Assembly: GCA_965248435.1 (NCBI GenBank)
Contig: OZ252100.1
Coordinates: 1,184,001-1,248,000 of the forward strand
Direction of reading: 5' to 3'
Length of the DNA: 64,000 nucleotides
Origin: Candidatus Latescibacterota bacterium
GTDB taxonomy: Bacteria > Latescibacterota > UBA2968 > GCA-2709665
Position 1 is the stretch's first letter; each line of letters starts with the position of its first letter. The translations under genes were made by a program, and so were the position numbers. Shown one piece after another: positions 456 through 54,208 of this stretch. The notes beneath the pieces were generated by a model. The model was not told where the DNA came from and ran no database searches. It was given only the letters and a program-made list of their open reading frames with translations.

Positions 456-734
456 CCTCGGCCTCCGTGGAAAGTGTAGTTGTTGGGGAGAATTTTAAGG
501 GGCTGGAGAACCTCTCCCTCAGATCGTGTTATTCTGAAATCCTCCAGCCCCTTGGGTTTGTCAGCTCGCAGGCATCAACCCCTTTCTCCTCTTGCCTTAA
601 ACCGAGGATGGTCTCATATTAAGAGACCCCTCGGGTGTGCTCCACCACAGTGGCTTTGACGGGTTCTTGGTTGTCAGGCCTGACCCGTTTCAGCTACGGA
701 CACATTCGGGGGTTTGCTACGTCTAGAAGCCTTT

Positions 735-934
735 CTAAGTCGTAGTGCTTTGCCTAGCTTTGAGTTTCTTTACCGTTTCGTGAATCCCTTGGCTGGCCCT
801 TTCTTTGAGATGCTGCTTCAACTCCTCTACGTATTCTTCTGCCTTTCTCGGAAATTCTAACCCTCCCAGTGAATGAACAAAGCAATGCTTTCTTTATCTC
901 CATTTCTAAAGGATATACTTATTCTATCTCCCAT
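735..934 (-). pseudogene. Frameshifted small virus-like hypothetical gene (MGDRISISFRNGDKESIALFIHW / GLEFPRKAEEYVEELKQHLKER...)
   Basis: GGTGA SD then ATG at 934. The frame stops after 25 codons, but a shifted frame continues with protein-like sequence to a TAG at 735. Confidence 0.45.
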
Positions 935-1046
935 CTTCACATCACCCTTTAAAGAATCCATTATCCTTTAGAAGAATCTCCCCAGTGCTTTCGGAAGTAG
1001 CTGTATGCCGTCCTAATTCTGCTCCCACTTACTTTGCTTGCACCTT

Positions 1047-1703
1047 CTATTCGAGAATCATATCAAAGAGGTTATTTATTTCCTGCATTACTTGCGTATC
1101 TCCACCTCTATCAGGATGGAGGTGAAATGAGACTTTCTTCTTTAACTTCTTAACAGTCGCAATCTTTTCCTCTAGCCTTCTGAGTCGAGCTCTCAAATCA
1201 GAGACAGTTTCTCTTAGTGCATCTAGGGATTCTGCCTTTTTTTGCTTTGGTGGAAGGAGCGAATTTATCTTTGTACGAAGCGTGTCACGAGTGATCTTTT
1301 TTTTGAAAAGCTCTTCCTTGAGCATTTCGAACTCTGGCTGAGGAAGCTGTTTCTGAACTCGACGTAGCATTGCGATCTGGTTGTATGAGGGGACGAACGC
1401 GCTGTGATTTTTCCGTCTGACGGAAATCAGATGTGGAAAATGCTGTTCGATGAACTCTCGCCCTCTGATAATGTCGCTTGCTGCGGATCTCCCGAACCAT
1501 AGCTCTCCTGCAACATATGAATTGAAGCTTTCGAAGTTCCCAAACAGACGCCAAAGATTGTCCTTCTTTACCTCCATAAAAAGCTCACCTAGCTCCATCC
1601 AACATTGATGGTCTGGACGGAGTTGCTTCGCAAGCTGAAAGATCTCGGTTCGAACCCGGTTTGCGTGTCTCTGGCTACTTCCAGCTTTCTTTTTAGACGC
1701 CAT
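1047..1703 (-). CDS. Hypothetical protein with coiled coil and C-terminal J-domain-like HPD motif
   Basis: C-terminus KKVSFHLHPDRGGDTQVMQEINN resembles the J-domain HPD loop; the N-terminal part resembles small phage DNA-binding proteins. Confidence 0.65.
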   Translation of the reverse strand: MASKKKAGSSQRHANRVRTEIFQLAKQLRPDHQCWMELGELFMEVKKDNLWRLFGNFESFNSYVAGELWFGRSAASDIIRGREFIEQHFPHLISVRRKNHSAFVPSYNQIAMLRRVQKQLPQPEFEMLKEELFKKKITRDTLRTKINSLLPPKQKKAESLDALRETVSDLRARLRRLEEKIATVKKLKKKVSFHLHPDRGGDTQVMQEINNLFDMILE

Positions 1704-1788
1704 AACGTTTTATCTCAACTTTCGAGCCGAGCCCCGTGGGATTCTAAAGATTTCGGGCGTGTGACGCGTGTGCGATACGACCTTGCTG

Positions 1789-2010
1789 TTATATATAAAG
1801 GTTGGTAGATGTCCCAGCTCCTTGAGTTTGTTGCTCCAGATGAACGCGAAGGCAATCGAGGACGAAAACCTGAACGCCTCTGTTCGCAAGCTCTTCGCGA
1901 ATTGATGCAAGTCGCGTATATGGTCCGGGATTACCGCGCTGCTGTTCCGCCTCAGTCCAATACGCGAAAATCAGATCCGGCGTTGACGTTGATGATTCCA
2001 TCCTGAACAC
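1789..2010 (-). CDS. Small hypothetical protein
   Basis: GTG start after AAGGGG; closely follows the upstream ORF. Confidence 0.35.
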   Translation of the reverse strand: MFRMESSTSTPDLIFAYWTEAEQQRGNPGPYTRLASIREELANRGVQVFVLDCLRVHLEQQTQGAGTSTNLYI

Positions 2011-2019
2011 CCCTTATTC

Positions 2020-2214
2020 TTAAGCAGTTTGATCTGTGCCGCTTGTGCGCTTCAGCTTTGCGATTGCTTGCTGACCGCAGTGCAACTGGTTTACTAAGAT
2101 TCGCTCTGCTTCAGGTGAACCGTAGGGATGGTACTTTATTGCGCCTGTGGCCTTGTCATATTCAAGGATGTAGGCGGCGCTAACTCCGCCGTCCAGAATC
2201 TCCGGAAGGCTCAT
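2020..2214 (-). CDS. Small hypothetical protein
   Basis: 64-aa ORF in the tightly packed minus-strand run. Confidence 0.4.
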   Translation of the reverse strand: MSLPEILDGGVSAAYILEYDKATGAIKYHPYGSPEAERILVNQLHCGQQAIAKLKRTSGTDQTA

Positions 2215-2600: not shown

Positions 2601-2615
2601 CGAAACCTTTATATA
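2601..2615 (+). promoter_or_regulatory. Archaeal-type BRE-TATA promoter
   Basis: CGAAACC-TTTATATA upstream of the rightward gene run. Confidence 0.55.
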
Positions 2616-3347: not shown

Positions 3348-6300
3348 ATGAAACCTATCCAGAGTAAAGAAGAGTTCGATGAGCTTGCGTGCGAGCACGG
3401 TTTCAAGACTCGCCGGGAACTGCTGGCTGCCTGCAAAAAAGTCGAGGGAATCAAAAAATCAACTCTGGAGAAAATCCGCAGCCAAAATTATAGAAATTTC
3501 GGACGAGTTACGCTCAGGGCCTTGGCAGAACTTCTTAGTCTAGTAGGCAAGGAGATTACTCCCTCAGAGCTCGATATCAAATTGGGATGGATCGAGCCGG
3601 TCACTGGCGAGAATACCCTCAGAGCTGGGCAGGACACCGGGCGAGACACCGTCGCAGAGAAGTTGGCAACGTTATCGGAGTCCCTACGAGCCAAACTTAG
3701 CGCCATTCACTATGAAGACAGGAACTTGAAACGCCTCACCGTGGGTCATAAAGGGGCTAATTCGAGTGAAGATGACGAGGTAATCACTGTCGCGCAGCTG
3801 TCGCGCAAGAAGTGTGCTCTTGTAATAGGTGAAGCCGGATTAGGGAAAAGCACCTTGTTGGATGATATTGCTCGGTATTCAGCCCTAAACAACCGAATCC
3901 CAGTCTATGTTGATCTTAGTATCCGAATCGTAGAAGAACTTGAGCATTTCGAGAGTCACGTCTGGGCATGTGCACAATCCTACAGGGGTGTAGACAACGT
4001 AGCATTCTCACCCTTAGACTCGAAGAGCACGGACGTCGTTTTTCTGTTTGACCACTTGGATTTGTCTCCTCGCCCCAGTGCGAATGAGATTCCTGAGGTA
4101 GTTCGCCTTGTTAATTCATTCCTTAACAAACAGGGGCGTCTGAAAGAGCGCGCCCAATTCATCGTGTGTTGCCGGACTAACTTCGATTCGTATTATCGAA
4201 AACTACATCCCAGTTTCGACTGTTTCGAACTGCTTAATCTCAATTCTGAAGACAACATACCCAGATTGTTGGAAGCCCATGGAGTCCCTTCTTTACTTTC
4301 TGATTCTTTGAGGGAGAGGGAGTTACTTGACTTTGCAAAAAACCCTCTACGACTTGTCCTATTAGCTGAGATTTACAAGGCTAATACCGAAGACGGCAAA
4401 GAGATCAGAATTCTGAAGGAGTCGGATATATATGACCAACATGTTGATCTGCATATTGAGAGGGAAATCAGAGAACGAGAGTTGAAGGCACCAAAGAGAT
4501 TAGTGAAAAGACTGCTAGCTCGTCTTGCATTTGAATCATTCACATCCGCGATCCCTGGAGCACAGGAGTTCAGAAGGGGTTGGGCAGTGGACTTTCTCCA
4601 AGAGATCTTGCCGAAAGCCGTTGGGACAAGCCAAATCAACGGGAGTCTAGTAATAGAAGGACTCATCAGCGGAGGCTTGATCACTCTCTCTTCAGATGGT
4701 AGACGGTTCGAATTCTATCATCCATTGCTTAGAGATTTCTTTTGTGCTCTGCATCTAGCAAGGAATAACTCTCAGGCCAATGCTTTAGAAATCTTACTCG
4801 CAAAAGCCGGCGACCCAGAGAAGAGATTAGGTCCCGAGTGGGAGAAAGTATTCTTGCTCTATGCGGGACTGGTAAAGGACGTCACCCCCCTTGTTGCAGC
4901 ACTAGCAGATAAGGAAGAAGTCCAAGACGACATTTTCCGAACAAACCTTCTCCTTGCCGGAAAGTGTCTTGCTTCTTCCACCCTAAGCCACGACAATCCC
5001 ACATACACGCAGGTCATGGATGAGGTCTGGGAGATGTTCTTACAAGCTGAGGATCCGAATTTCTTGGGGGAGGCCCCAGAGGTCCTTGGCAGTTACACCA
5101 GTCCGAGCTTCATCGACGATCTATTTACGAAGCTCAGAAGTCGAGATAAGGGAACTCAGTGTCGCAGCCTGATTGTGTTATCACTTTTGGCGACTAGAAG
5201 CGGAACAGTCACCCAGCAGCTATTGTCCTTGTTGGACGTAAGCCATAGGAGGATTCGCTCAATTAGGACGGAGCTAGTTGAGATACTAGCAGATCTTCAT
5301 TGCAATGATGCAGTTCAACCACTAGTCAAACTGCTGGGTGATAGCAGTGGTGATCTGAAAGGAACAGTCGCACGCAGTCTTGCGAGATTGGGAACCAGGA
5401 ATGCGATCGAAGCTCTGGTAGGACTTCTCAGGCAGAATCTGGAAGACGACTCTTGGCGCTTCGTTGAATTTGCCCTAGTCCACAGCAAATCGGAGATTGC
5501 GGTCGAACTTCTCGGTGAACTGTTGCTTGATGAAGACGTACCGTGGGAGGCCAGACTGAGAGCCATGACCCCTTTGGCATTGATTGGCTCAAAAAAGGCC
5601 ATTGAAGTGATATCGTGGGGTCTTGAAACCGAACTTAAGGGTCTGATCATTGCGGTATTGGCTTTGACGAGGTCAAATAGAGTTGTCGAGCTACTCAAGA
5701 GACTGCTGGAAGATGAAGATGTTCGGACGCAGACAATTTGGACTCTTGCGTGGATCGGAACGCCAGAAGCTCTTGAACCATTGATATCTCTGCTGAATGA
5801 CAAGACTCACGACTTAGCCCTCTGTGAAACCATCGTGCGGAGACTCAGGTATTGCGAAGCGGTGCGGAACACTACTTTCGATCTATCGGGGGCCCTTGAA
5901 GCTTTGCTGCAGTTGCTGAATAATCCAGATGTTGAGTTCAAGGCAGATGTCATTACCATATTGCGGGCGCCTGAAGCATGCGGGCTACTTGTGAATCTTC
6001 TCGAAACGAGCGACCCAGAAATACAGCGAGCGGCCGTTCGCGCTCTTGGCAGGAATGGCTGTGAAGAAGCCGTCAACAATCTAGTTAAGCTCTTTAGTCA
6101 TAGGATCTGGGATGCTGAGGAACCTTGGCCCTTGGGGCGTGTAATACTCCATTCAATAGAGTCTATTGGGACCCCGGAAGTCGTTTCTGTGCTACAGGGT
6201 ATAGCCTCTGATGGATCTGTCGAGGAGGTCTACCGGATGGACGCTCTGGAATCTCTTGATAAGATCGATTCGGGGGGTGGACATCTTCAAGACCAGGATG

Positions 6301-6728
6301 TTGAACCCGACTTCCTAGAGGCCCGAATCAAGGGACGCCCCTCACTCGCTTTGGAATTGAGTGACCCTGGCTTCGCCAGCAGTATCCTGATCAGCGAGTT
6401 AGTTCGAATCTGTGAAGAGAAAGACGAGTATGCCTATGGTGAGCATTGCGTCGAAGTCGCCAAGGTCCTTTTGCAGATTGGAGCTGGTGAGGGAATAGAC
6501 AAGCTAGTTTGCCTTCTTGGAAATGAAAACACCCCTGACACACTTCGAAGTGGGGTGGCAAGAGCGATGAAGGAAGTTCAACCATTCAGGGCTATCGAGG
6601 CTTTGTCTTGTTTGATCGGTGTGAAATCATTGAGGCCAGAAATCCTGGGTTTACTACACAACATTTCGGTTGAGACAGGAATAAGAATCACCGAGGACTT
6701 AATCCAGACATCTCCTGTTGGGGAGTAG
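3348..6728 (+). CDS. NACHT/STAND NTPase with HEAT (PBS-lyase-like) repeats and an N-terminal HTH-like segment
   Basis: Walker A GEAGLGKST, Walker B-like VFLFDHLD, VCCR sensor, NPLRL, winged-helix FYHPLLRDFF, and many HEAT-like repeats (AAVRALGRNG, LVKLLGD). Confidence 0.9.
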   Translation: MKPIQSKEEFDELACEHGFKTRRELLAACKKVEGIKKSTLEKIRSQNYRNFGRVTLRALAELLSLVGKEITPSELDIKLGWIEPVTGENTLRAGQDTGRDTVAEKLATLSESLRAKLSAIHYEDRNLKRLTVGHKGANSSEDDEVITVAQLSRKKCALVIGEAGLGKSTLLDDIARYSALNNRIPVYVDLSIRIVEELEHFESHVWACAQSYRGVDNVAFSPLDSKSTDVVFLFDHLDLSPRPSANEIPEVVRLVNSFLNKQGRLKERAQFIVCCRTNFDSYYRKLHPSFDCFELLNLNSEDNIPRLLEAHGVPSLLSDSLRERELLDFAKNPLRLVLLAEIYKANTEDGKEIRILKESDIYDQHVDLHIEREIRERELKAPKRLVKRLLARLAFESFTSAIPGAQEFRRGWAVDFLQEILPKAVGTSQINGSLVIEGLISGGLITLSSDGRRFEFYHPLLRDFFCALHLARNNSQANALEILLAKAGDPEKRLGPEWEKVFLLYAGLVKDVTPLVAALADKEEVQDDIFRTNLLLAGKCLASSTLSHDNPTYTQVMDEVWEMFLQAEDPNFLGEAPEVLGSYTSPSFIDDLFTKLRSRDKGTQCRSLIVLSLLATRSGTVTQQLLSLLDVSHRRIRSIRTELVEILADLHCNDAVQPLVKLLGDSSGDLKGTVARSLARLGTRNAIEALVGLLRQNLEDDSWRFVEFALVHSKSEIAVELLGELLLDEDVPWEARLRAMTPLALIGSKKAIEVISWGLETELKGLIIAVLALTRSNRVVELLKRLLEDEDVRTQTIWTLAWIGTPEALEPLISLLNDKTHDLALCETIVRRLRYCEAVRNTTFDLSGALEALLQLLNNPDVEFKADVITILRAPEACGLLVNLLETSDPEIQRAAVRALGRNGCEEAVNNLVKLFSHRIWDAEEPWPLGRVILHSIESIGTPEVVSVLQGIASDGSVEEVYRMDALESLDKIDSGGGHLQDQDVEPDFLEARIKGRPSLALELSDPGFASSILISELVRICEEKDEYAYGEHCVEVAKVLLQIGAGEGIDKLVCLLGNENTPDTLRSGVARAMKEVQPFRAIEALSCLIGVKSLRPEILGLLHNISVETGIRITEDLIQTSPVGE

Positions 6729-11099: not shown

Positions 11100-11903
11100 T
11101 TGGATAGAACCAAGAGCGGCTGGCTACGTCCGTATCTCCTGGCTTTGGACGATATGTTCAGCAAACGCTGGAACTATTGGCTGAGAACTCTGGATGAAGG
11201 GAAAGTCTTGGAGGAGAGGATTCCGCAGATTGAATGGTTGGGGCAAGGAGAAAAGGAAACGAGGAAAAACCTACAGGATTGTTTGGACTATGTTCACCAC
11301 CAGCGTAGAGATGATACGTTCAGCCAATTTACAGACTGGTTGCTCTATGGATTTGGAGACTCTGCACAGAGAGAGTTTCCGAAGAAAGTTGATGATAATG
11401 TCAATGCCCATTGGTATAAGACATTTAATATGGGTCTGATGCTGAAGCATCCCTACGATTACCTTGGAGAAATCGCCGCAGAGCTCTATGGCAAAGGAAA
11501 ATGGAATTCAACTGGCTATTTCCCAACACCATTGGATGTGTGTGTTATGATGGCGAAGATGACAATGAATGGAGCAAGAGAGGAGATGAAGACAGCTTCT
11601 GTGTGCGACCCTTGTGTTGGCTCTGGCAGGATGTTGATGGTTGCTTCAAACTCCTCGCTAAATCTTTACGGGATGGACATTGACTACAACGTCCTAAAGG
11701 TCTGCAAGGTGAATATGTGGATGTATGTCCCCTGGGCTATTCACCGTCCTAAGATTGAGGGGTTGGAATCAGCAGTGGGGATTGGGGGAGGAGATAGTCT
11801 CGCTCCTTCTTACACAGAACCAATCCAGAAAGTAACGCCTGAAGTCCAGCAGCAGCTTTTGAGTCAAAGGGGAGAGAAGCAGACGGATTTGTTCGGTAGC
11901 TAA
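11100..11903 (+). CDS. N-6 DNA methylase-like SAM-binding protein
   Basis: GYFPTP, motif I CDPCVGSGRML and YGMDID present; no NPPY/F catalytic motif seen. An SD-linked ATG at 11054 is out of frame by one base. Confidence 0.75.
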   Translation: MDRTKSGWLRPYLLALDDMFSKRWNYWLRTLDEGKVLEERIPQIEWLGQGEKETRKNLQDCLDYVHHQRRDDTFSQFTDWLLYGFGDSAQREFPKKVDDNVNAHWYKTFNMGLMLKHPYDYLGEIAAELYGKGKWNSTGYFPTPLDVCVMMAKMTMNGAREEMKTASVCDPCVGSGRMLMVASNSSLNLYGMDIDYNVLKVCKVNMWMYVPWAIHRPKIEGLESAVGIGGGDSLAPSYTEPIQKVTPEVQQQLLSQRGEKQTDLFGS

Positions 11904-12288: not shown

Positions 12289-12304
12289 CCGAAAGGTTTA
12301 TATA
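12289..12304 (+). promoter_or_regulatory. Archaeal BRE-TATA promoter of the TA operon
   Basis: CCGAAAGG-TTTATATA; conserved as CCGAAAGC-TTTAAATA in the paralogous copy at 53531-53546 (minus strand). Confidence 0.75.
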
Positions 12305-44018: not shown

Positions 44019-44095
44019 TATTGCTAAGGGGTGAATAACAAGACCCTGAAAGAGCCTCAGAGCCTTTTAGGGGGATGTTCTATGTCTAAGCGAAC

Positions 44096-44467
44096 TCAGC
44101 GAGGGCTTAGAATTATCGTTACTACATTTGCGATGTTTAGCCTATCAAAGCCAAGTTCTGCCATCCTGGCTTGATTGCCTTCAACAGTCACCAAGTAGGT
44201 CTCATTCTCACCAGCATTAAGTGGTCCTAGGATGGATGTTCCTTCTCCAATAGTTTCTCCTGAGACAGTGACTCTATGGCTGAGGCTGGCTCGCTCAGAT
44301 GTATCATCGCCATCATTGGATAACTGAACGCTCACTTCGAACCAGCCTCCGTTTATGCTATAGCGCTCAACCTTTGAGAATGCTCGGTATATGGGAGCTT
44401 CCTCCATATTTGGATTCAAGCCACAGGAAAAAGCCAACAAGGCTAGTATGAAAACAACAGACTTCAT
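44096..44467 (-). CDS. Putative lipoprotein with CARDB-like Ig fold
   Basis: LALLAFSC lipobox-like leader; VQLSNDG...LGPLNAGE. Confidence 0.65.
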   Translation of the reverse strand: MKSVVFILALLAFSCGLNPNMEEAPIYRAFSKVERYSINGGWFEVSVQLSNDGDDTSERASLSHRVTVSGETIGEGTSILGPLNAGENETYLVTVEGNQARMAELGFDRLNIANVVTIILSPR

Positions 44468-44479
44468 CTCTTTTCATCC

Positions 44480-44941
44480 TCAAGTGGGAATGGTAAATCT
44501 CACCTCTGCTGGAGTGGGGTCTTTTGCTCCTTCATCGTCAACAGCTCTGACTCTCAAGGTGTAGCTGCCTCTCGGTAGGTTTCTGACAGTGCCTCGTTGG
44601 AGGTATTCTATAACTGCCTCAAAGCTATCTGAGATTGTTGGAGGATTTGATTTGAGAGAAATCCAACTAATGACTTTTGGTCCTTGGATAGAGAACTCAT
44701 AATCCACAACGACCCCATCCCCATCATTTCCTTCATAGCCAACCAGAAGCGAAGGTCCTGGATCAACCTCTATTACGATAACTTGAGGGGGGAGAAAAAT
44801 GCTCCCAGGCGTAGGACTTGTGAACTTTGCAGATGTCTCTGGCGGTTGATTTCTTTGAGAGGAAAGAAGACCATCTAAGTCTTGATTACTTTCCTTGCAC
44901 CCCAGGACTAAGAGAATGAGAATTAGAGATAATTGTTTCAT
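44480..44941 (-). CDS. Putative lipoprotein with Ig-like/Y_Y_Y-type domain
   Basis: LLVLGC lipobox; GSYTLRVRAVDDEGAKDPTPAEVRF. Confidence 0.7.
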   Translation of the reverse strand: MKQLSLILILLVLGCKESNQDLDGLLSSQRNQPPETSAKFTSPTPGSIFLPPQVIVIEVDPGPSLLVGYEGNDGDGVVVDYEFSIQGPKVISWISLKSNPPTISDSFEAVIEYLQRGTVRNLPRGSYTLRVRAVDDEGAKDPTPAEVRFTIPT

Positions 44942-44960
44942 CTCCTCTCTTTACCTCCTT

Positions 44961-45827
44961 CTACGGCATAATGAATTTCATATAGAGACTGACTTGCAAA
45001 GCACCAAGTTTGACTTTTCCAAAATCTCCTTCCAGTTCAGTTTCGAGGGAAGTCCATTTGGGCTCAACAACAAAACCCACATAGTTGTTTGGCATCCGCA
45101 TCTCAAGATTTGCTCCGAAACTCCACCCATCCTCCCACTTATCAATATTTCCTTCTGTAACAGAACTGTCTAGCCCAAGCTCAGAGCCATTCATCTTTAC
45201 AGAGCCAAAAGCCAAACCTCCGAAAATGCTGGCATACACCTTTACACCTGGGCTCTCCTTCTCAGCCAGATTTTCCCTGTAGAGAAGCATCACTTCAAAG
45301 ATTCCTACATCCCAATTCCAGGTATTCAGGAAAGTGTTATCCAGAAAACCCTTTTGCAGCTCATAGCCTGTATAGTCCACTTTCAGTCCAAAGCCATCGC
45401 CGTGCTCGAACTCTGTTGAAAATCTCACCCCTGAAAAGCTTTCTCCATCAGGTCCAGCGATTGCCTGAATTCCAGTATTCCCCGCCAGTTTTCCTATTCC
45501 ATATCCGACTCCTAGAGACAGAACTCTTTCTGATTTGCTTTCTGTGGAAGCTTGCTCATCTTGGTTGATGAGACTATCTGGTTCAGGTGGTGCAAATAGA
45601 TCAGAGTCAACTGATAGCTGCACTTTTCCAATCCTCTTCACTTCCTCCATCCTAAACACCAGCAAGTCTCCTGCTCGATTCTTTACTTTTACATACTCTC
45701 CAGGAATTTGCTCAACAATGGTTCCAAAGATGATGCTGCCATTTTTGAGCTGGATCTCGTATAGGATTTCCTGAGCTCCTATCTCTCCTGCAAACACCAA
45801 GACCATCACTGCAAGTAAGCTTCTCAT
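44961..45827 (-). CDS. Putative outer-membrane beta-barrel protein
   Basis: Signal peptide; IQLKNGSIIFGTIVEQIPG N-terminal domain; alternating amphipathic strands ending VSLYMKF. Confidence 0.65.
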   Translation of the reverse strand: MRSLLAVMVLVFAGEIGAQEILYEIQLKNGSIIFGTIVEQIPGEYVKVKNRAGDLLVFRMEEVKRIGKVQLSVDSDLFAPPEPDSLINQDEQASTESKSERVLSLGVGYGIGKLAGNTGIQAIAGPDGESFSGVRFSTEFEHGDGFGLKVDYTGYELQKGFLDNTFLNTWNWDVGIFEVMLLYRENLAEKESPGVKVYASIFGGLAFGSVKMNGSELGLDSSVTEGNIDKWEDGWSFGANLEMRMPNNYVGFVVEPKWTSLETELEGDFGKVKLGALQVSLYMKFIMP

Positions 45828-45848
45828 ATGAATACCCTCCTTAGAGTG

Positions 45849-45929
45849 TTGCTTTTAGCCCACATTTAAGATAAGGAAAAGATTGCTTATGAGCAATCTT
45901 AATAGATAGGAAAATACTGCTTTTAAGCC
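45849..45929. promoter_or_regulatory. Operator-like dyads upstream of an XRE regulator
   Basis: AAGATTGCT-TATG-AGCAATCTT (45879-45900) plus two related TGCTTTT(A)AGCC sites. Confidence 0.55.
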
Positions 45930-46017
45930 ATTACGCCCCCGGCTTGGAAATCTTACCTTAGTGTTTTAAAATTCAGGACTTACTTGCAGTAGAGGTTTGA
46001 AAAGGTAGGAGGGGGCT

Positions 46018-46380
46018 ATGAAACAGTTCGAGGAAACAGCAAGACTTCTGGGCAAAAGGATATGGGATTTGCGAAAGCAGGCAGGATTATCTCAAGAGGA
46101 GCTTGCAGAGGGTGCGGATGTTAGTCTGGATGCTTGTGGAAGGCTGGAGAGAGGGGAGGGGAATGCGACTCTAAAGACAATGGTTGGAATCTCTGAAGCC
46201 TTCAGAATCAGCTTGAGTGAATTGTTTCAGCTCCGACAAGGAAAACAAGATCCTATAAAGAAGGAGATTGGAGAACTTTCCATTTTTCTTTCTACAAAAC
46301 CTTTAGAGGATGTTAAGTTTGCTGCTGGATTGATGAGGCAGATGATTTTACAGCTTCAGGAAGTTCGTGGAGAGGAATAA
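46018..46380 (+). CDS. XRE-family HTH transcriptional regulator
   Basis: LGKRIWDLRKQAGLSQEELAE...RLERGEGNATL. Confidence 0.9.
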   Translation: MKQFEETARLLGKRIWDLRKQAGLSQEELAEGADVSLDACGRLERGEGNATLKTMVGISEAFRISLSELFQLRQGKQDPIKKEIGELSIFLSTKPLEDVKFAAGLMRQMILQLQEVRGEE

Positions 46381-49653: not shown

Positions 49654-50076
49654 ATAGAAAAACGAATAATACTGATTTCCTGTGCGAGGAAAAAACGAGA
49701 TACGAAATCCAAAGCAAAAGATATGTATGTAAGCGCTTTGTTTAAGAAAAGTCTAGCTTATGCAAATCAGATACAACCAGTAAAGAAGAATATTTACATC
49801 CTATCTGCAAAACACGGGTTATTGCCATTAGATCAGGAGATTGAACCATATGAATTTTCATTGAAATTCTTATCAAATGTGAAGGTAAAGAAATGGGCAA
49901 AAAACGTATTAAATCAATTGGAAGAAGTATGTACACTTGACGAAACTGATTTCATTCTTTTTGCTGGTGAAAGATATAGAAGATACTTAGTGCCACACCT
50001 AAAATCTTATGAAATTCCTCTTAAAGGATTGGGTATTGGCAAACAGTTAAAAGAACTTAATGAGCTTGTAAAATGA
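49654..50076 (+). CDS. DUF6884-family protein; canonical start apparently lost
   Basis: In-frame KRIILISCARKK...AKDMYVSALFKKS...ILSAKHGLL...AGERY...GLGIGKQL; first ATG is at 49723, after the conserved ISC motif. Confidence 0.75.
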   Translation: MEKRIILISCARKKRDTKSKAKDMYVSALFKKSLAYANQIQPVKKNIYILSAKHGLLPLDQEIEPYEFSLKFLSNVKVKKWAKNVLNQLEEVCTLDETDFILFAGERYRRYLVPHLKSYEIPLKGLGIGKQLKELNELVK

Positions 50077-50711
50077 GCCAAAAGTGTTGTTTGATCACAA
50101 CCGTTTTTAATGACCTTAATCGATACAATTTTCCCTATGATGAATCCTATATTCCAAAGAATGGTATCTACATTTTATTTGAAAAGAGAGAAACCGGCCA
50201 TAAATGTGATAGAGTGGTGAGAATCGGAACTCATACAGGAATTAATCAGTTACGATCAAGATTAACACAACATTTTCTGAAGGAAAATAAAGATAGAAGT
50301 ATCTTTAGAAAGAATATTGGAAGAGCAATATTAAACAAAAGAAAAGATCCTTTTCTCAAACATTGGGAAATCGATCTAACAACAAAAGAGACAAAAGAAG
50401 AATATTTCAGGTTAATCAATTTGAATTATCAAATGGAGGTTGAAAGTGAAGTCAGTGTGTATATTAGGAATAATTTTTCGTTTGTTGTTTTCGAAGTCGG
50501 AAAAAACGAAAAGCGTCTTGAATTGGAATCTAAAATTGTATCAACGGTGTCACTCTGTGAAAAATGTAGACCATCAAGCTCATGGCTGGGGAACTTTTCA
50601 ACAAAGGAAAAAATTGTTAATAGTGGTCTATGGCAAATAAATGAGCTCTATAAGAAACAGTTGAATAGTAATGATATTGATGAGTTAGCTAGGTTAATGA
50701 AAAAGGTTTGA
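50073..50711 (+). CDS. GIY-YIG-like nuclease-family protein
   Basis: NGIYILFE...VVRIGTH...LRSRLTQH and LELES; ATGA overlap with the DUF6884 gene. Confidence 0.7.
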   Translation: MSQKCCLITTVFNDLNRYNFPYDESYIPKNGIYILFEKRETGHKCDRVVRIGTHTGINQLRSRLTQHFLKENKDRSIFRKNIGRAILNKRKDPFLKHWEIDLTTKETKEEYFRLINLNYQMEVESEVSVYIRNNFSFVVFEVGKNEKRLELESKIVSTVSLCEKCRPSSSWLGNFSTKEKIVNSGLWQINELYKKQLNSNDIDELARLMKKV

Positions 50712-50781
50712 ATTTCTCATAATGAGGTCGGAAAATGAAAACATTTACCGTAGTTTTTATATGGTTTGGAAAGGAGGTAGA

Positions 50782-52388
50782 ATGTTAAGTAATTACTTAG
50801 GTTCTCAACCTCATTATGGATAATCCATCTAAACCAACAAGCAAGACGAAATAGGCTCGCGCTTATTTGCGGTGCCGGAATCTCAATTGATGCTGGGATA
50901 CCATCGTGGAATACGCTTGTGGAGAGAATCGCTCGCAATCTAAAGGATATTCCAGAAGACTCCATTCAATTCTTTGGTGCTGGTTATAGTCCTACCTTTT
51001 TGACACAAATTGCTTATGAGCATTTTATTCGTAAATGTAAGCTATATAATACGACTGATAGACTCCTCGCGAATGAATACTGGGCAAGAATTGTTCATGA
51101 GTCTCTTTACCAAGACTGCGATCAATCTATTGACAATATCTTGAATTCACATCCATATTTACGGCAACTGGCCAGACTAGCATTCAAATGTCCACAGATT
51201 GTAACTTTTAATTTTGATAATCTGTTATCAGAAGCAATGCAAGTGCATGCATCAGAAGTAGCGAAGACTGGTGGTCATTTGGTTCCACCAGACATTTCTG
51301 TTAAACCAGGCTTAATTGATAAACCTGGTGCACCTACAATATTCCACATTAATGGATTATTACCAAGAAATCTACAGAGAAAACGAAGCGAGCATTTAGT
51401 ATTCACCGAAAATGCTTTTGCTGACGCTATGTTGTCAACAAACAGCTTAGAATTCAATCACATTTTGTTTAACCTCAGCAACTATACAAACTTGATAATC
51501 GGGCATTCGCTAAACGATTCATCGCTCAAGAATTTACTGAGGGGGTCAAGGCAAAGGGCTCCTGCGCAATTGAATTATTTCATTAGCTGGGTTGATGAAA
51601 AGGAACCACCAAATGATCAAGTAATGCAAGATATTTTTGCCGTTAATCTGGAAGTGTATAATCTGATAACGATTTTTGCCACTACTTCAGACATTGCAGA
51701 GATCCTAAAACTAATAAATATAACAGAAGAAATCGATTTCGCGGCAGCATTAAGACCTTTCGGGATTTCATCCATTAAATATCTATACTACATTGTTGGT
51801 CCCGTCGCATCTGGCAAAACTTCGGTTCTGCTGCATTTACGCTATTTCCAGACCTATGAAGAATGGTTAGATCCAGTTCCACCGTTGATGTATCTAAGTC
51901 ATAACCTCCTAACAGATGAACAGCGTTCAGATGTTGAAAAATGGGTATTAGACCAATTAGATAAGAAGAACAGAATAATGCAAAGGACTGAGGCGGGTTT
52001 CTATTTTATGGATAGAGCACCCTTAGATGCTTTGGTTTTTTCTGCTACTGAAGAGGAACGAAGAAAAAAGGCATGTGCTCTGTCCAAGTGCTTTCAAGCT
52101 GATAACCAGCTTACAAATGCTCAGATCCAGTTCATTTATGCCGAAGGGAAGGCGCTAGAAGAGAGGAACATTCGACGAGGCAGACTTCCTGAACAAGGAG
52201 GGGATTCAGATTATATTGATAAACAAACTAATGATCTATTAACACTCTATACTCCAGACAAAATCTATGATGCAACAAACAAAAGTTCTGGAGAAATCGC
52301 AAGAGAAATTGTAATCTCAACATTACTTGATGATTATGAAGAGAAGAATTTAGGAAGCATATTGGAAGAAGAAACCAATGAAATCTAA
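50782..52388 (+). CDS. SIR2-like domain fused to a C-terminal P-loop nucleoside/nucleotide-kinase-like domain; 5' frameshift
   Basis: LICGAGISIDAGIPSW, VTFNFDN, FHING, IIGHSLND; then GPVASGKTS, EEW, MDRAPLD. The AAGGAGGT SD-linked ATG at 50782 is out of frame near 50820. Confidence 0.8.
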
Positions 52389-52803
52389 AGTATATTTTGC
52401 AGCTCCTCTGTTTACAAAAGAAGAACGATCCTTCAATTCGTTTCTAACAGATATTCTGTCAAAGAGATACTATGTTTATCTTCCCCAAAGAGATGGTGTC
52501 CTGCTAGAAAACGAGGCTCGTAAAGGGAAATCGGTTGCTCAGGTAAAAGAGCTTATTTTTGAGAAGGACTGTGAAGCAATCAGAGACTGTAATATTGTTT
52601 TTGCTGTTCTTAACGGTAGAACCATTGATGAGGGTGTTTGTTTTGAACTTGGCTATGGATTTGCTCTGGGGAAGAAATGCTGGAGCTATAAAGAAGATTG
52701 GCGCTCTTTGTTTAAATATGGTGATAATCCAATGATTGAAGGTGCAATACAACACTATTTCAAGTCAATTGACAAACTTGTAACCTTCATTAGCGATCGT
52801 TAA
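52378..52803 (+). CDS. Nucleoside 2-deoxyribosyltransferase-family protein
   Basis: VYFAAPLF, YLPQRDG, DCEAI, DEGVCFELGYG, NPMI; overlaps the SIR2 gene end. Confidence 0.9.
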   Translation: MKSKVYFAAPLFTKEERSFNSFLTDILSKRYYVYLPQRDGVLLENEARKGKSVAQVKELIFEKDCEAIRDCNIVFAVLNGRTIDEGVCFELGYGFALGKKCWSYKEDWRSLFKYGDNPMIEGAIQHYFKSIDKLVTFISDR

Positions 52804-53237
52804 TTCAAAGTTCTTGCTTTTCCAAAGTGAATACACTGCGGTAAATATAGACAAAGGAAATAGTCGGGTAGCCGGCGGATTTTCTCCCCCAGCTCCCAAA
52901 GCAGGTGCCCCACTCCTTCAAGAGTGAGTTTCTGATGTATGTGCTTATTCTCGTAATAGTTAAATCAAAAGTACAGGTCTATTTTCGTAACAGGCCACTA
53001 GAATCATAAAACAGAGAAAAATTGAAGCCCATCCTGGATTCGACTTGAGCATCAGGCGTCGTTCGGTCACCCTCCTATTCCCTCAACGATCTCGCAAAAC
53101 GCTGTCCTCTGAAATTCCCTGTCTGAAATTTCACCAATGACCGAAGTGTAAGCCTCCTTGAGAGGATTCGGTAGGTTTGGGACTCTAGTCCGACCTGCTC
53201 ATTCTCCGTAAAGTGCAGATGAAACCCAATCCACCTT

Positions 53238-53495
53238 TTACAATCCAGGAGGGATTCCTCGGATGCCTATGTAGTCCTTTTCAGCCGTTTTCAGGCCCTT
53301 CTCGGGAAGTGATGGGGTTTCTTTGCCCAAAATCCCAAAAACCCCATAAATGCCAGTCTTCAGAGGCTTTAGTATCAGTGCGTCCTTTCTCTCGCTTAAG
53401 TCCATCTCCAGGAGAGTGTCCTCTTCAATTTCCAGTTCCTTACGAAACTCAGAAGGGATCGAGACCTGCCTTCCTTTTGTCGTTTTTGTTAGCAT
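53238..53495 (-). CDS. Orphan AbrB-family antitoxin paralog
   Basis: MLTKTTKGRQVSIPSEFRKELEIEED...DALILKPLKTG, near-identical to 12341; the C-terminus diverges and no PIN gene follows. Confidence 0.7.
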   Translation of the reverse strand: MLTKTTKGRQVSIPSEFRKELEIEEDTLLEMDLSERKDALILKPLKTGIYGVFGILGKETPSLPEKGLKTAEKDYIGIRGIPPGL

Positions 53496-53559
53496 TCTGC
53501 ATAACCTCATTCAGAATGAAGCATTTGAAGTATTTAAAGCTTTCGGCTTGCTCTCTTTG

Positions 53560-53745
53560 CACTTCGGACACTTGGGCATTTTCTCCACCAATTGGAGAAG
53601 AGGGCTTTTCACCCTCTCCAATTTCCTCACTTCTCTCAACCGCCTTCTTCCTAAATACTGAGAACAGCTTCATATCCTCATCTTTCTTGTTCTTTCCAAT
53701 GCCGTTAAAGACTATTCTCACTTCATCTCCCACACTTACTGTCTG
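53560..53745 (-). pseudogene. 3' remnant of the OB-fold gene at 9628
   Basis: VGDEVRIVFNGIGKNKKDEDMKLFSVF matches VGAEVRVVYNGIGKNKKDEDMKLFSVF. Confidence 0.8.
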
Positions 53746-53764
53746 AATATTCACAGGGCAGAAA

Positions 53765-54208
53765 TTGTTATTGGCTTCAGTGTTCCTCTTTTTCTGTATG
53801 GAAAAACGAAAATATGGCCTTCAGCTCTTCGATGAAAACTATCTCCCACGACCCTCACCGCCGTTTCCCTTCGGGATGCAACCTCAACATTCGGTTGGGA
53901 ATGCTGGGTTGTTCCGGAAACTCTTGACAGGATTGGCGGCGCTCCAAAGGAATTCATTGGTCCGTTATAGAGATCCATCTATTGAAGGAATGTTGAAGGA
54001 GAGCGTTGTTGAGGAAGCACTCAATGAGACCGGTATGAATTCAGAACGAAGATATCCGTATCTCGAAGCAGAGGTGAGTGATGCAGTGGAAAGCGGTAGG
54101 TATTTTCGAACTCTAGGAGCGTCGAAATCCAGTCGTGGCCGGAGCCTTCTGGAGCAAATGGACTTACTCCCTCGTGAGCTCCCACGAGACAGTATCAGCA
54201 TTTCCTAA
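53765..54208 (+). CDS. Possible hypothetical protein or fragment
   Basis: 147-aa ORF with no recognised motif. Confidence 0.25.
   Translation: MLLASVFLFFCMEKRKYGLQLFDENYLPRPSPPFPFGMQPQHSVGNAGLFRKLLTGLAALQRNSLVRYRDPSIEGMLKESVVEEALNETGMNSERRYPYLEAEVSDAVESGRYFRTLGASKSSRGRSLLEQMDLLPRELPRDSISIS

What the first reader, a model, noticed from the sequence alone, without database searches (positions are those of the whole stretch)
700..54000. Inter-domain mosaic: archaeal (DPANN-like) segments interleaved with bacterial genes that keep bacterial promoters
Seen: BRE-TATA boxes at 2601, 12289, 14216, 22233, 40265, 40393 and 53531, several about 30 nt before SD-less starts. These alternate with segments carrying sigma70 promoters (36556, 33380, 37614) and sigma28 promoters (26681, 36755), intrinsic terminators, lipoboxes, a beta-barrel protein, HU/IHF and FapA. 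Knowledge from memory: the CxDSDGG-repeat protein and the MAENDIY integrase resemble Woesearchaeota/Pacearchaeota proteins, while the DFxDFxxFAQxFG dockerin-like, FapA and cNMP genes resemble Latescibacterota-like bacteria. Inference: this is either a small symbiotic archaeon or its element stockpiling host genes, or a replicon functioning in both domains. Most speculatively, the integrase and HerA-like pump deliver cassettes that are expressed in a bacterial partner.
Basis: partly seen in the sequence, partly recalled or inferred. Interest (0 to 1): 0.85.

Follow-up and report, generated by a model that had tools for sequence, protein, structure and literature searches.

The report
Bacterial genomic island carrying DPANN-archaeal genes
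This stretch is a foreign, low-GC island in an ordinary large bacterial chromosome, not an archaeon, but its integrase, a toxin-antitoxin cassette and a secreted protein have their nearest relatives in tiny DPANN archaea, which points to gene traffic between the two domains.

Summary
The window is C1:1184001-1248000 of a 5.66 Mb, 56.6% GC bacterial chromosome with a bacterial 16S rRNA gene. It lies inside a ~104 kb low-GC (40-48%) variable region beside tRNA-Ala(GGC). Both flanks are syntenic with a same-genus genome that lacks the region. So it is neither a small archaeon nor a two-domain replicon.

- The MAENDIY integrase belongs to a family found mostly in DPANN archaea: 62 of 80 genome loci are archaeal, and 0 of 167 other genomes of the host's phylum have it.
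- The Cys-rich half of the CxDSDGG protein matches 97 of 201 DPANN genomes and 0 of 172 other bacterial genomes tested.
- The VapBC cassette is closest to DPANN copies (46% identity against 28-31% in the host phylum). It shares a BRE/TATA-plus-operator promoter with one of them.
- GAAANNTTTAWATA occurs 3 times in the window (0.03 expected) and nowhere else in the genome.

Most other genes are bacterial in type. These include STAND, RadC, DUF2958, a two-component/FapA block, HU, AcrB and intrinsic terminators. A diverged sister island at 5.58-5.62 Mb repeats the same backbone, so the "archaeal" and "bacterial" parts travel together.

Verdict: a composite bacterial island with real DPANN-derived pieces. 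The direction of transfer and the activity of the promoters are not shown.

The parts
2602..2615 (+). Exact BRE/TATA-like composite, followed by the palindrome TTGCATGCTGCAA. No ORF of 80 aa or more starts within 60 nt. It lies upstream of ORF 2800-3327 and the STAND gene.
   Evidence: no toxin-antitoxin remnant found after it
3348..6728 (+). STAND/AAA NTPase with HEAT/ARM repeats (Avs-like defence candidate); bacterial affinity
   Evidence: Pfam; PADLOC; 0 of 151 DPANN genomes against 10 of 167 host-phylum genomes
11100..11903 (+). N6 DNA methyltransferase-like protein
   Evidence: Pfam E 1.8e-7; PADLOC MTase_I and mad2, weak
12291..12971 (+). VapBC cassette: BRE/TATA composite at 12291-12304, palindromic operator GAATGCTTCATTC, MazE/AbrB-type antitoxin at 12341-12586 and PIN toxin at 12564-12971. 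DPANN affinity.
   Evidence: Pfam
14248..15166 (.). DUF2958 protein (14248-14607, +) and RadC-like JAB protein (14636-15166, -). These accessory genes accompany the integrase only in bacterial loci.
   Evidence: Pfam
16579..16592 (+). One-mismatch BRE/TATA-like box, 351 nt upstream of the integrase start. Similar boxes lie 164-228 nt upstream of the integrase in the sister island and in three bacterial loci.
16930..18195 (+). Tyrosine integrase (MAENDIY N-terminus, C-terminal CxxC...CxxC ribbon) of a DPANN-dominated family. Preceded by a strong SD, AAGGAGGTG.
18255..20450 (+). HerA/FtsK-superfamily ATPase with a C-terminal extension that I read by eye as a winged helix plus nuclease-like domain. 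The family occurs in both domains.
20920..22212 (-). Secreted protein whose C-terminal half (aa 212-430) consists of CxDSDGG Cys-rich repeats typical of DPANN genomes. TATAAATA lies 28 nt before its GTG start, with no SD.
22365..24770 (-). Two secreted proteins: one with a dockerin-like C-terminus (22365-23339) and one collagen-like (23373-24770)
25682..37075 (.). 11.3 kb block bounded by 114-nt direct repeats (25682-25795 and 36962-37075) and absent from the sister island. It holds cNMP-binding, FapA, RR-GAF, PAS histidine kinase, response regulator and MerR genes, with strong terminators.
39470..46380 (.). Backbone block shared with the sister island at 83-86% nucleotide identity: HU, 101-aa and 148-aa ORFs, PA14 protein, dockerin-like protein (start revised to ATG 43973), two small ORFs, a beta-barrel-like ORF and a Cro/C1 HTH gene.
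40387..40400 (+). One-mismatch BRE/TATA box 39 nt before the ATG at 40426, no SD. The overlapping minus-strand match at 40395-40408 is the one kept in the sister island (C1:5599875).
43996..44009 (-). One-mismatch BRE/TATA box 36 nt before the ATG at 43973. It is kept in the sister island (C1:5596268, also 36 nt).
49723..52803 (+). Defence cluster: PDC-M57 A/B (49723-50711), SIR2-like plus AAA protein (50919-52388) and a nucleoside 2-deoxyribosyltransferase-like protein (52378-52803). GC 32-38%.
53238..53544 (-). Orphan MazE-like antitoxin (ATG 53495 to 53238) with its exact BRE/TATA composite at 53531-53544. It is a paralogue of the 12.3 kb cassette.
55022..63949 (-). AcrB-family RND pump, penicillin amidase and an NRPS PCP-condensation protein: bacterial cargo at the right of the window
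   Evidence: AcrB has host paralogues at 59-68% identity

Best explanation
The window is the middle of a composite genomic island of about 104 kb, inserted beside tRNA-Ala(GGC) in the chromosome of a 5.66 Mb bacterium.

The island was built by several integrative elements.
- A classical tRNA-side integrase with its own HerA-like ATPase lies just left of the window.
- Inside the window is a second mobility module: a tyrosine integrase of a family that otherwise lives mainly in DPANN archaea, a HerA/FtsK-type ATPase, RadC and DUF2958.
- A diverged sister copy of this second element sits at 5.58-5.62 Mb.

The element carries defence genes, toxin-antitoxin stabilisers, surface proteins and a block of bacterial signalling genes inserted between 114-nt repeats.

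At least three pieces came by horizontal transfer from DPANN-like archaea or their mobile elements: the integrase, the VapBC cassette with its orphan copy, and the Cys-rich module of a secreted protein. Some kept their archaeal BRE/TATA promoter and operator.

Shown: the bacterial setting, the island limits, the sister copy, the taxonomic skew of the three families, the homology of the promoter, and the enrichment and spacing of the motif.

Inferred: the direction of transfer (archaea to bacteria), that the integrase moves this element, and that the TATA-like boxes are read, if at all, by the bacterial polymerase as AT-rich -10-like elements.
For: Bacterial setting.
- The genome is 5,673,632 bases in 2 contigs at 56.6% GC, with a bacterial SSU rRNA of 1586 bits.
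- The window is 40-48% GC, inside the low-GC stretch C1:1.176-1.264 Mb.
- In same-genus genome G050, LigA and tRNA-Ala are followed by 16.4 kb of other DNA. Synteny then resumes at our C1:1278772.

Sister island.
- Sixteen window proteins have syntenic matches at C1:5583329-5614868. Examples: integrase 40%, ATPase 56% and 49%, HU 71%, PA14 86%, HTH 93%.
- A 6 kb block is 85.7% identical in DNA.

Integrase.
- Nearest Atlas clusters are 82-100% Archaea.
- The named homologues are Woesearchaeota, Nanoarchaeota or 'archaeon'.
- By record title, 62 of the 80 best genome loci are archaeal and 18 bacterial.
- 13 of 151 sampled DPANN genomes hold it, 2 of them seeds. None of the 167 other host-phylum genomes does.
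- In the tree, bacterial rows are scattered, with at least 4 changes forced by starred branches.

Cys-rich module.
- 97 of 201 DPANN genomes match.
- 0 of 167 host-phylum genomes and 0 of 5 other bacterial genomes match.

PIN toxin.
- The best DPANN matches are 46% and 41% identical, E 3e-23 and 2e-21.
- The best host-phylum match is E 1.5e-8, at 28-31% identity.
- A DPANN locus has the antitoxin at 51% identity and an alignable GAAA/TATA box plus palindrome.

Motif.
- In 62 archaeal loci the motif occurs 47 times in 922 kb. By my count from the listing, 21 of those lie 35-40 nt before an ORF start.
- In the window the spacings are 36, 39, 50 and 49 nt.

Bacterial accessory genes.
- The ATPase neighbours the integrase in 10 of 18 bacterial loci by tblastn, or 11 of 18 by ORF clustering, and in 0 of 62 archaeal loci.
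- RadC and DUF2958 neighbour it in 4 bacterial loci each.
Against: - Identities to DPANN homologues are only 40-50%, so no sampled archaeon is a recent donor.
- The integrase tree is unrooted. The query sits on a long branch (1.32) with no starred clade, so direction is not proven.
- The ATPase family is found in both domains at similar strength: DPANN best 31%, host phylum best 36%. Its tree does not place ours.
- BRE/TATA-like boxes also precede genes without DPANN affinity. The dockerin-like protein gave 0 of 5 DPANN genomes, the neighbouring PA14 protein 1 weak match in 151, and the STAND gene downstream of 2602 gave 0 of 151. The motif could therefore be a promoter type of the element itself.
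- The integrase has a strong SD and no TATA at leaderless distance.
- GC is uniform (40-49%) across the 'archaeal' and 'bacterial' genes.
- MAG titles may be wrong. Thirteen of the 62 'archaeal' loci are titled Methanosarcinales yet interleave with Woesearchaeota in the tree.
- The reads come from one sample, probably the source of the assembly. In two of the four runs depth differs up to two-fold between parts.
Confidence: 0.7

Rival explanations
1. Shared mobile-element pool without an archaeal origin. On this reading the integrase, ATPase, VapBC and Cys-rich module belong to element families that circulate in anoxic sediments and groundwater. DPANN archaea, with small and gene-poor genomes, took them from bacteria or from elements, and the GAAANNTTTAWATA box is the elements' own promoter, read in bacteria.
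For: - The ATPase family is equally strong in both domains.
- The boxes precede genes with no DPANN affinity, and two are kept in the sister island.
- The integrase occurs in at least 18 loci titled as bacterial. Four of them lie on contigs of 341 kb to 6.48 Mb.
- The trees are unrooted.
Against: - 62 of 80 integrase loci are archaeal.
- None of 167 other host-phylum genomes has the integrase.
- 97 of 201 DPANN genomes have the Cys-rich module against 0 of 172 bacterial genomes.
- The box and its spacing to the start codon are the standard promoter form in the archaeal loci.
- The exact box is absent from the other 5.6 Mb of this genome.
Confidence: 0.18
2. Chimeric assembly: archaeal and bacterial contigs of similar coverage were joined by the assembler.
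For: - The record is metagenome-like, with 7% estimated contamination.
- Depth differs up to two-fold between the 12-25 kb and 26.7-32 kb parts in runs X1 and X2.
Against: - Both flanks are collinear with a same-genus genome.
- Relatives in the family show the same 5-12% 'contamination' figure.
- Single contigs from the runs bridge 12000-19106, 21409-25159 (across the 22.3 kb join) and 26659-31999 at 100% identity. Depth is even in X3 and X4.
- The sister island repeats the joins at 39.9 and 44.05 kb.
- An integrase 99% identical lies on a separate 78.8 kb contig.
Confidence: 0.03
3. One reading: the region is the genome or element of a small symbiotic archaeon that stockpiles host genes, or a replicon that works in both domains.
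For: The integrase, the VapBC cassette, the Cys-rich protein and the BRE/TATA boxes are DPANN-like.
Against: - The region is embedded in a 5.66 Mb bacterial chromosome.
- The window has no tRNA gene and no Rfam match at gathering score, so no rRNA or other curated RNA of either domain.
- No replication gene was recognised.
- The scans recognised mostly bacterial-type genes, and strong intrinsic terminators are present.
Confidence: 0.02

Closest known systems
Bacterial genomic islands and integrative elements at tRNA genes (defence islands)
   Same: A low-GC insert beside a tRNA gene, absent from a close relative, with integrases, toxin-antitoxin pairs and defence genes (STAND, PDC-M57, SIR2) and a mosaic build.
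   Different: The internal integrase belongs to a family seen mainly in DPANN archaea. No att repeat was found. No type IV secretion or phage structural genes were recognised.
Archaeal tyrosine recombinases (XerA; pNOB8-, SNJ2- and SSV-type integrases), as reviewed in PMC8371274 (passages read)
   Same: A tyrosine recombinase catalytic domain. The best solved match is archaeal XerA, 5hxy, E 1e-7. NCBIfam recomb_XerA_Arch matches weakly.
   Different: It is about 420 aa with a conserved MAENDIY N-terminus and a C-terminal zinc-ribbon-like motif. It scores far below the XerA cut-off (25 against 220 bits). The gene is intact, not split as in SSV-type integrases. The review passages found by my term search do not mention DPANN.
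Integrons in Archaea as platforms for cross-domain transfer (Ghaly et al. 2022, PMC9668308; passages read)
   Same: Archaeal cassettes reaching bacteria by site-specific recombination. Toxin-antitoxin cassettes with their own promoters are typical cargo.
   Different: The integrase here gave no match to the integron-integrase model TIGR02249 at the E 0.001 limit of the scan. No attC or other Rfam match was found. That paper found only six IntI in archaea, whereas this family is common in DPANN.
VapBC (AbrB/MazE antitoxin with PIN toxin) modules
   Same: Overlapping antitoxin and PIN genes, with a palindromic operator over the promoter.
   Different: The promoter is of the archaeal BRE/TATA form and is homologous to that of a DPANN copy, yet it sits in a bacterium.
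HerA/FtsK/VirB4-superfamily ATPases (archaeal CedD DNA translocase; MADS mad8; defence HerA)
   Same: P-loop ATPase core. Matches: PADLOC mad8 E 1e-21, NCBIfam CedD E 8.8e-10, PDB DUF87 protein 8yho E 3e-6.
   Different: All scores are far below the family cut-offs. It has an extra C-terminal part and is linked to an integrase rather than to a known defence or conjugation operon.

Membership tests
Archaeal genome or archaeal replicon | Archaeal rRNA, tRNA or informational genes on the same molecule | tested here: not met
   A bacterial SSU rRNA of 1586 bits lies on the same 5.66 Mb contig. A bacterial NAD-dependent LigA flanks the island. The window has no tRNA gene and no Rfam match at gathering score.
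Genomic island / integrative element | Foreign composition, insertion beside a tRNA gene, absence from a close relative, and an integrase | tested here: met
   GC is 40-48% against 56.6% for the genome. tRNA-Ala lies at the left edge. The region is absent from G050, whose flanks are conserved. Two integrases are present.
Genomic island / integrative element | Flanking att direct repeats | tested here: not met
   No tRNA-derived repeat, no second copy of the integrase 5' end, and no suitable direct repeat in the window.
Tyrosine recombinase (Phage_integrase, PF00589) | Catalytic R...K...(H/Y)xxR...(H/W)...Y | tested here: met
   In alignment A1, R194, K222, Y287, R291 and Y322 are invariant and W313 is nearly so. 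Assigning them to the catalytic roles is my reading. Pfam gives 23.6 bits, below the 27.1 cut-off. PHROG integrase matches at E 9e-12. Homologues carry PF00589.
Integron (IntI plus attC cassettes) | Match to the integron-integrase model, and attC sites | tested here: not met
   The integrase gave no TIGR02249 match at the E 0.001 limit of the scan. No Rfam match at gathering score.
SSV-type 'suicidal' integrase | att site inside the gene, so the gene is split on integration; Phage_integr_3 domain | tested here: not met
   The gene is intact at 421 aa. No Phage_integr_3 (PF16795) match was returned. No int(N) fragment occurs elsewhere in the genome.
Integrative conjugative element | Relaxase, coupling protein and type IV secretion genes | tested here: not met
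   Only weak P-loop matches to TraG, TrwB and TraC models. No relaxase or VirB-type genes among the 58 ORFs scanned.
Prophage | Capsid, portal and terminase genes; relatives on viral contigs | tested here: not met
   PHROGs gave only integrase matches and a P-loop match to terminase (10 proteins scanned). The integrase profile found no relative in viral contigs.
VapBC toxin-antitoxin | AbrB/MazE antitoxin directly upstream of, and overlapping, a PIN toxin | tested here: met
   MazE_antitoxin E 5e-8 and PIN E 5e-14. The genes overlap by 23 nt (12564-12586).
Archaeal BRE/TATA promoter | Purine-rich BRE plus TTTAWATA about 25 nt before the transcription start | tested here: inconclusive
   The sequence and its spacing to start codons match those in 62 archaeal loci. 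No start-site or expression data exist, and no RNA run was listed.

The most novel reading that the evidence does not exclude
An integrase-plus-ATPase element family is mobile across the archaea-bacteria boundary today. This bacterium is, or recently was, a physical partner of DPANN archaea, and archaeal cassettes arrive with their own BRE/TATA promoters and persist in bacterial islands. That would give a genomic handle on whether some DPANN archaea live on bacterial hosts.
Probability: 0.12. Interest if true: 0.85.

Novelty: new variant of a known kind. Interest (0 to 1): 0.6.

Why it matters
Gene flow from bacteria into DPANN archaea is widely reported. This is the reverse case: an integrase, a stabilising toxin-antitoxin cassette and a surface-protein module lodged in a bacterial chromosome, with archaeal promoter architecture still readable.

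If the direction and recency hold, three things follow.
- It names a recombinase family that may carry genes between the domains without integrons.
- It offers natural test cases for what happens to archaeal promoters in bacteria.
- It points to specific bacteria as candidate neighbours or hosts of DPANN cells.

If the boxes are instead the element's own bacterial promoters, that is also new, because they are confined to two islands of this genome.

Tried and rejected
Searches that gave nothing useful.
- att sites: no tRNA-Ala-derived repeat in C1:1170001-1300000, no duplicate of the integrase 5' end or N-terminus in the genome, and no bounding direct repeat.
- A conserved partner gene of the integrase in archaeal loci: the only large shared cluster was antisense ORFs inside the integrase gene.
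- A toxin-antitoxin remnant after the 2602 box: nothing significant, best E 0.024. That box stays unexplained.
- Atlas search for the Cys-rich protein: no usable hit.
- Taxonomic names for the Cys-rich and PIN homologues: the search for homologous proteins gave 25 and 10 hits without names. The listing of cluster members gave no names for 10 proteins.
- Closer integrase relatives in metagenome contigs: 43 loci, none above 47% identity among matches covering most of the protein. Higher figures belong to N-terminal fragments of 30-155 residues.
- Host phylum from 16S: only 75-80% identity to five named bacterial genomes, so the phylum is not named.
- HerA-like ATPase tree: our copy was not placed, and long branches meet.
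- Dockerin-like protein in 5 DPANN genomes: 0 of 5, too few to conclude anything.

Expression and depth.
- No RNA holder was listed, so there is no evidence either way.

Literature.
- Four searches and passages of two papers turned up no description of this integrase family or of a DPANN-type integrase in a bacterial island. This is not proof that none is in print.
- Supplements were closed. Data S1 and S4 of PMC9668308 and Table S1 of PMC8371274 might bear on it.

Readings rejected.
- Integron: no match to the IntI model and no attC.
- Prophage: no structural genes and no relatives on viral contigs.
- Conjugative element: no relaxase or type IV secretion genes.

Full report
WHERE THE WINDOW LIES

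The window is G000:C1:1184001-1248000 of a genome of 5,673,632 bases in 2 contigs. The genome is 56.6% GC and has 48 tRNA genes, including tRNA-SeC. A bacterial SSU rRNA gene scoring 1586 bits lies on the same contig. The window itself has no tRNA gene and no Rfam match at gathering score.

Its GC is 36-55% in 2 kb windows. In 4 kb steps, the chromosome drops from 53-60% to 40-49% right after tRNA-Ala(GGC) at C1:1174327-1174402, and climbs back only beyond about 1.264 Mb. One other comparably low-GC stretch lies at 5.55-5.63 Mb; a few isolated 10 kb windows elsewhere dip just under 50%.

A same-genus genome, G050 (4.08 Mb, one contig), keeps LigA (81% identity) and tRNA-Ala (91%). It then has 16.4 kb of other, high-GC DNA, and synteny with our genome resumes at C1:1278772. 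The window is therefore the middle of a ~104 kb variable region at a tRNA hotspot in a bacterial chromosome.

GENE CONTENT

I scanned 58 ORFs against Pfam.

Left part, 1-22 kb:
- STAND/AAA NTPase with HEAT repeats (3348-6728)
- N6 methyltransferase-like protein (11100-11903)
- MazE/PIN pair (12341-12971)
- DUF2958 (14248-14607) and RadC (14636-15166, minus strand)
- tyrosine integrase (16930-18195)
- HerA-like ATPase (18255-20450)
- secreted Cys-rich protein (20920-22212, minus strand)

Middle part, 22-47 kb:
- dockerin-like and collagen-like secreted proteins
- cNMP-binding protein, FapA, RR-GAF, a PAS histidine kinase, eight further response-regulator genes and MerR
- HU, a PA14 protein, a second dockerin-like protein, a weak beta-barrel match and a Cro/C1 HTH protein

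Right part, 47-64 kb:
- pentapeptide-repeat protein
- PDC-M57 A/B, a candidate defence system (PADLOC E 1e-41 and 7e-96)
- SIR2-like plus AAA protein and a nucleoside 2-deoxyribosyltransferase-like protein
- AcrB, penicillin amidase and an NRPS PCP-condensation protein

Just left of the window, next to tRNA-Ala, are a classical tyrosine integrase and a second HerA-like ATPase.

A SISTER ISLAND

The genome holds a second integrase of the same family, 40% identical, at C1:5611451-5612668. Sixteen window proteins have syntenic matches around it at C1:5583329-5614868:
- RadC 53%
- the ORF next to RadC 43%
- ATPase 56% and 49%
- a coiled-coil ORF 84%
- a response regulator 91%
- HU 71%
- ORFs 39937 and 40426 at 92% and 96%
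- PA14 86%
- dockerin-like protein 76%
- ORFs 44096 and 44480 at 98% and 75%
- the barrel-like ORF 64%
- HTH 93%
- AcrB 65%

In DNA, window 40389-46367 is 85.7% identical to the other island.

The 11.3 kb cNMP/FapA/two-component/MerR block is missing from the sister island. In the window it is bounded by 114-nt direct repeats at 25682-25795 and 36962-37075 (82% identity). Its genes have paralogues across the host chromosome, for example FapA at 51%. The sister island ends near tRNA-Glu and tRNA-Arg with a large serine recombinase.

THE INTEGRASE

The Atlas places the integrase among clusters that are 82-100% Archaea. A protein search gave 159 homologues. The best, apart from its own cluster, is 57% identical. 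The few named ones are 'site-specific integrase' of Woesearchaeota, Nanoarchaeota or 'archaeon'.

A profile scan of one genome per species found 106 relatives, and the best 80 were kept. By record title, 62 are archaeal: mostly Woesearchaeota, Nanoarchaeia and Nanoarchaeota, one Aenigmatarchaeota, and 13 titled 'uncultured Methanosarcinales'. The other 18 are bacterial. Four of the bacterial loci are on long contigs: Desulfatiglandales 6.48 Mb, Omnitrophota 398 kb, Verrucomicrobia 369 kb and Acidobacteria 341 kb.

At E 1e-20 or better, the family is in 13 of 151 sampled genomes of the DPANN phylum of G006. Two of those 13 were seeds chosen through the integrase. It is in 0 of 167 other genomes of the host's phylum.

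The tree had 76 rows. Five loci with products under 330 aa were dropped. In it the 18 bacterial rows need 9 changes of label, at least 4 of them forced by starred branches. The query sits on a long branch (1.32) beside a Woesearchaeota row with SH-aLRT 92, not starred. The tree is unrooted.

Further points:
- The catalytic set I read from alignment A1 is R194, K222, Y287, R291, W313 and Y322. These columns are invariant or nearly so.
- It is not an integron integrase: the scan returned no TIGR02249 match.
- It is not a split SSV-type gene.
- It has no relatives on viral contigs.
- Its nearest solved relative is archaeal XerA, E 1e-7.

WHAT TRAVELS WITH THE INTEGRASE

By tblastn of the window proteins against the 80 loci, the HerA-like ATPase lies within 10 kb of the integrase in 10 of 18 bacterial loci and in 0 of 62 archaeal loci. 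RadC and DUF2958 each occur in 4 bacterial loci and in no archaeal locus. ORF clustering gave 11 bacterial loci for the ATPase. No neighbour gene is conserved among the archaeal loci.

The ATPase family itself crosses the domains:
- 35 of 151 DPANN genomes match at E 1e-5 or better, 14 of them at E 1e-27 or better. The best is 31% identical over residues 156-711.
- 17 of 167 other host-phylum genomes match, 5 of them strongly. The best is 36% identical.
- The ATPase tree pairs our copy with the sister island's (support 100) and does not resolve the rest.
- It matches PADLOC mad8 (E 1e-21), NCBIfam CedD (E 8.8e-10) and HerA models, all below their cut-offs.

THE CYS-RICH PROTEIN

The protein search gave 25 homologues, all partial and without names. 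Genome searches were decisive:
- Residues ~212-430 match 5 of 5 DPANN genomes reached through integrase loci.
- They match 97 of 201 sampled genomes of that phylum, E down to 7e-19 at 35-50% identity, often in several copies per genome.
- They match 0 of 167 other genomes of the host's phylum.
- They match 0 of 5 other large bacterial genomes.

The N-terminal half matched nothing.

THE TOXIN-ANTITOXIN CASSETTE

For the PIN toxin, 16 of 151 DPANN genomes match at E 1e-4 or better. The best are 46%, 41% and 38% identical, E 3e-23 to 2e-18. In the host's phylum, 19 of 167 other genomes match. The best E is 1.5e-8, at 28-31% identity.

In DPANN genome G308, which also holds the integrase, the toxin (39%) follows an antitoxin that is 51% identical to ours. 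The upstream DNA of the two aligns. Ours reads GAAAGGTTTATATAC...GAATGCTTCATTC. The DPANN copy reads GAAACATTTTTATAC...AATGAATTCATT. In each, the start codon follows about 20 nt later.

A second, orphan antitoxin gene (53495-53238, minus strand) with the same promoter is 82% identical over 203 nt to the first.

THE PROMOTER-LIKE BOXES

Counts for GAAANNTTTAWATA are as follows.

| Test | Found | Expected or comparison |
|---|---|---|
| Exact, window | 3 | 0.03; 0 of 100 shuffles reach 3 |
| Exact, whole genome | the same 3 only | none elsewhere in 5.66 Mb |
| Up to 1 mismatch, window | 7 | 0.97; 0 of 100 shuffles reach 7 |
| Up to 1 mismatch, whole genome | 24 | 7 in this island, 3 in the sister island, 14 in the other ~5.47 Mb |
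| 62 archaeal loci (922 kb) | 47 | 0.51 per 10 kb |
| 18 bacterial loci (290 kb) | 7 | 0.24 per 10 kb |

By my count from the listing, 21 of the 47 archaeal copies lie 35-40 nt before the start of an ORF of 80 aa or more. That is the leaderless archaeal geometry. Among the 7 copies in bacterial loci, one lies 36 nt before a MAENDIY start codon (L070). Others lie 168-228 nt upstream of the integrase.

In the window the spacings from the box to the start codon are:
- 50 nt (12291 to 12341)
- 49 nt (53544 to 53495)
- 39 nt (40387 to 40426)
- 36 nt (44009 to 43973, after revising the start of the dockerin-like gene)

The 43996-44009 box and the minus-strand match at 40395 are conserved in the sister island, the first again 36 nt before the ATG. 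The Cys-rich gene has TATAAATA 28 nt before its GTG start and no SD. Boxes with one mismatch lie 351 nt and 164 nt upstream of the two integrase genes of this genome. Our integrase itself has a strong SD and no box at leaderless distance.

Three results count against a simple 'archaeal gene equals archaeal promoter' rule:
- The PA14 protein, the neighbour of the box-bearing 40426 and dockerin-like genes, matches 1 of 151 DPANN genomes, weakly. It matches 7 of 167 other host-phylum genomes, through the PA14 domain only.
- The dockerin-like protein gave 0 of 5 DPANN genomes.
- The STAND gene downstream of the 2602 box gave 0 of 151 DPANN genomes and 10 of 167 host-phylum genomes.

Other signals:
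- Sigma-70-like sites are at chance level overall.
- Five strong intrinsic terminators lie in the 26-40 kb bacterial block.
- Gene GC is 40-49% throughout, apart from the defence cluster (32-38%), ORF 40426 (36%), the dockerin-like gene 42708-44018 (39%) and AcrB (54%). GC3 is lowest (0.27-0.30) in the 40.4-44.0 kb genes.

ASSEMBLY

Four runs of one sample hold the stretch. This is probably the source sample, so the runs are not independent support. Their contigs tile window 12000-31999 at 100% identity with 30-nt overlaps. Single contigs bridge 12000-19106, 21409-25159 (across the 22.3 kb join) and 26659-31999.

Depth in X3 is 37-48 over 12-24.7 kb against 44.7 over 26.7-32 kb. In X4 it is 34-51 against 39.9. 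Both rise to 55-69 over the repeated 24.7-26.7 kb stretch. In X1 (12.8 against 23.3) and X2 (15.6 against 6.9) depth differs about two-fold, in opposite directions. I cannot explain that difference from contig means.

An integrase 99% identical is on record on a separate 78.8 kb contig. The joins at 39.9 and 44.05 kb recur in the sister island. The island ends themselves could not be checked with reads.

READING

This is a composite bacterial genomic island, not an archaeon or a dual-domain replicon. Real pieces of DPANN affinity sit within it: the integrase, the VapBC cassette with its orphan copy, and the Cys-rich module. They are interleaved with bacterial element genes (RadC, DUF2958), defence genes and host-like signalling genes.

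The most economical account has three steps.
1. A bacterial integrative element acquired an integrase and cassettes from DPANN-like archaea or their elements.
2. The element then diverged into two copies in this genome.
3. Those copies gathered bacterial cargo.

The direction of transfer rests on taxonomic skew, not on rooted trees. Identities of 40-50% mean that no sampled archaeon is a recent donor.

The BRE/TATA-like boxes are enriched and correctly spaced. Because they also precede genes without DPANN affinity, they may be relics of unsampled archaeal donors, or a promoter type of the element itself. Only start-site mapping can tell.

I found no description of this integrase family, or of such an island, in four literature searches and passages of two papers.

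Noticed in passing
window 49723-52803: A very low-GC (32-38%) defence cluster. It holds PDC-M57 A/B (PADLOC E 1e-41 and 7e-96), a SIR2-like plus AAA protein, and an overlapping nucleoside 2-deoxyribosyltransferase-like gene.
   Followed up: partly
window 25682-25795 and 36962-37075: 114-nt direct repeats (82% identity) bound an 11.3 kb cNMP/FapA/two-component/MerR block that the sister island lacks. Similar terminator-bearing repeat units recur at 26583-26644, 33461-33490 and 36660-36718. This suggests cassette-like insertion by recombination between repeats.
   Followed up: partly
L082:5773-5868 (C1:1171773-1171868), left of the island: A ~95-nt sequence between host genes has dozens of copies at 83-87% identity in the same-genus genome G050, and shorter matches in family genomes G062 and G065. 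It looks like a lineage-wide REP- or MITE-like repeat family.
   Followed up: no
metagenome loci L114, L120, L121, L125, L126, L128: Several contigs carry only the first 30-155 codons of this integrase family. One 58.6 kb contig has a full gene near one end (L097) and an inverted 71-codon N-terminal fragment near the other (L121). This may reflect recombination within the conserved 5' end of the gene.
   Followed up: no
window 12000-31999, runs X1 and X2: Contig depth of the 12-25 kb part against the 26.7-32 kb part differs about two-fold in opposite directions in two runs of one sample (12.8 against 23.3, and 15.6 against 6.9), while two other runs are even. Possible causes are strain variants with or without the 11.3 kb block, or noise in contig means.
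   Followed up: no
window 23373-24770 (-): A secreted protein with collagen-like GDxGDxG runs and a weak N-terminal match to the Bdellovibrio 'mosaic adhesive trimer' fibre family (NCBIfam E 9e-5, below the cut-off).
   Followed up: no
L144 = G167:C66:538-20500 (same class as the host): A relative's contig carries a STAND NTPase (24-30% identity), a HerA-like ATPase (31-36%) and RadC (52%) within 14 kb, but no MAENDIY integrase anywhere in that genome. The accessory module therefore exists without this integrase.
   Followed up: partly
L138 and L141 (DPANN genomes G183 and G200): Two DPANN-genome contigs that carry the HerA-like ATPase are 56-57% GC, far above the 37% mean of the archaeal loci. 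They may be foreign islands or misbinned contigs.
   Followed up: no
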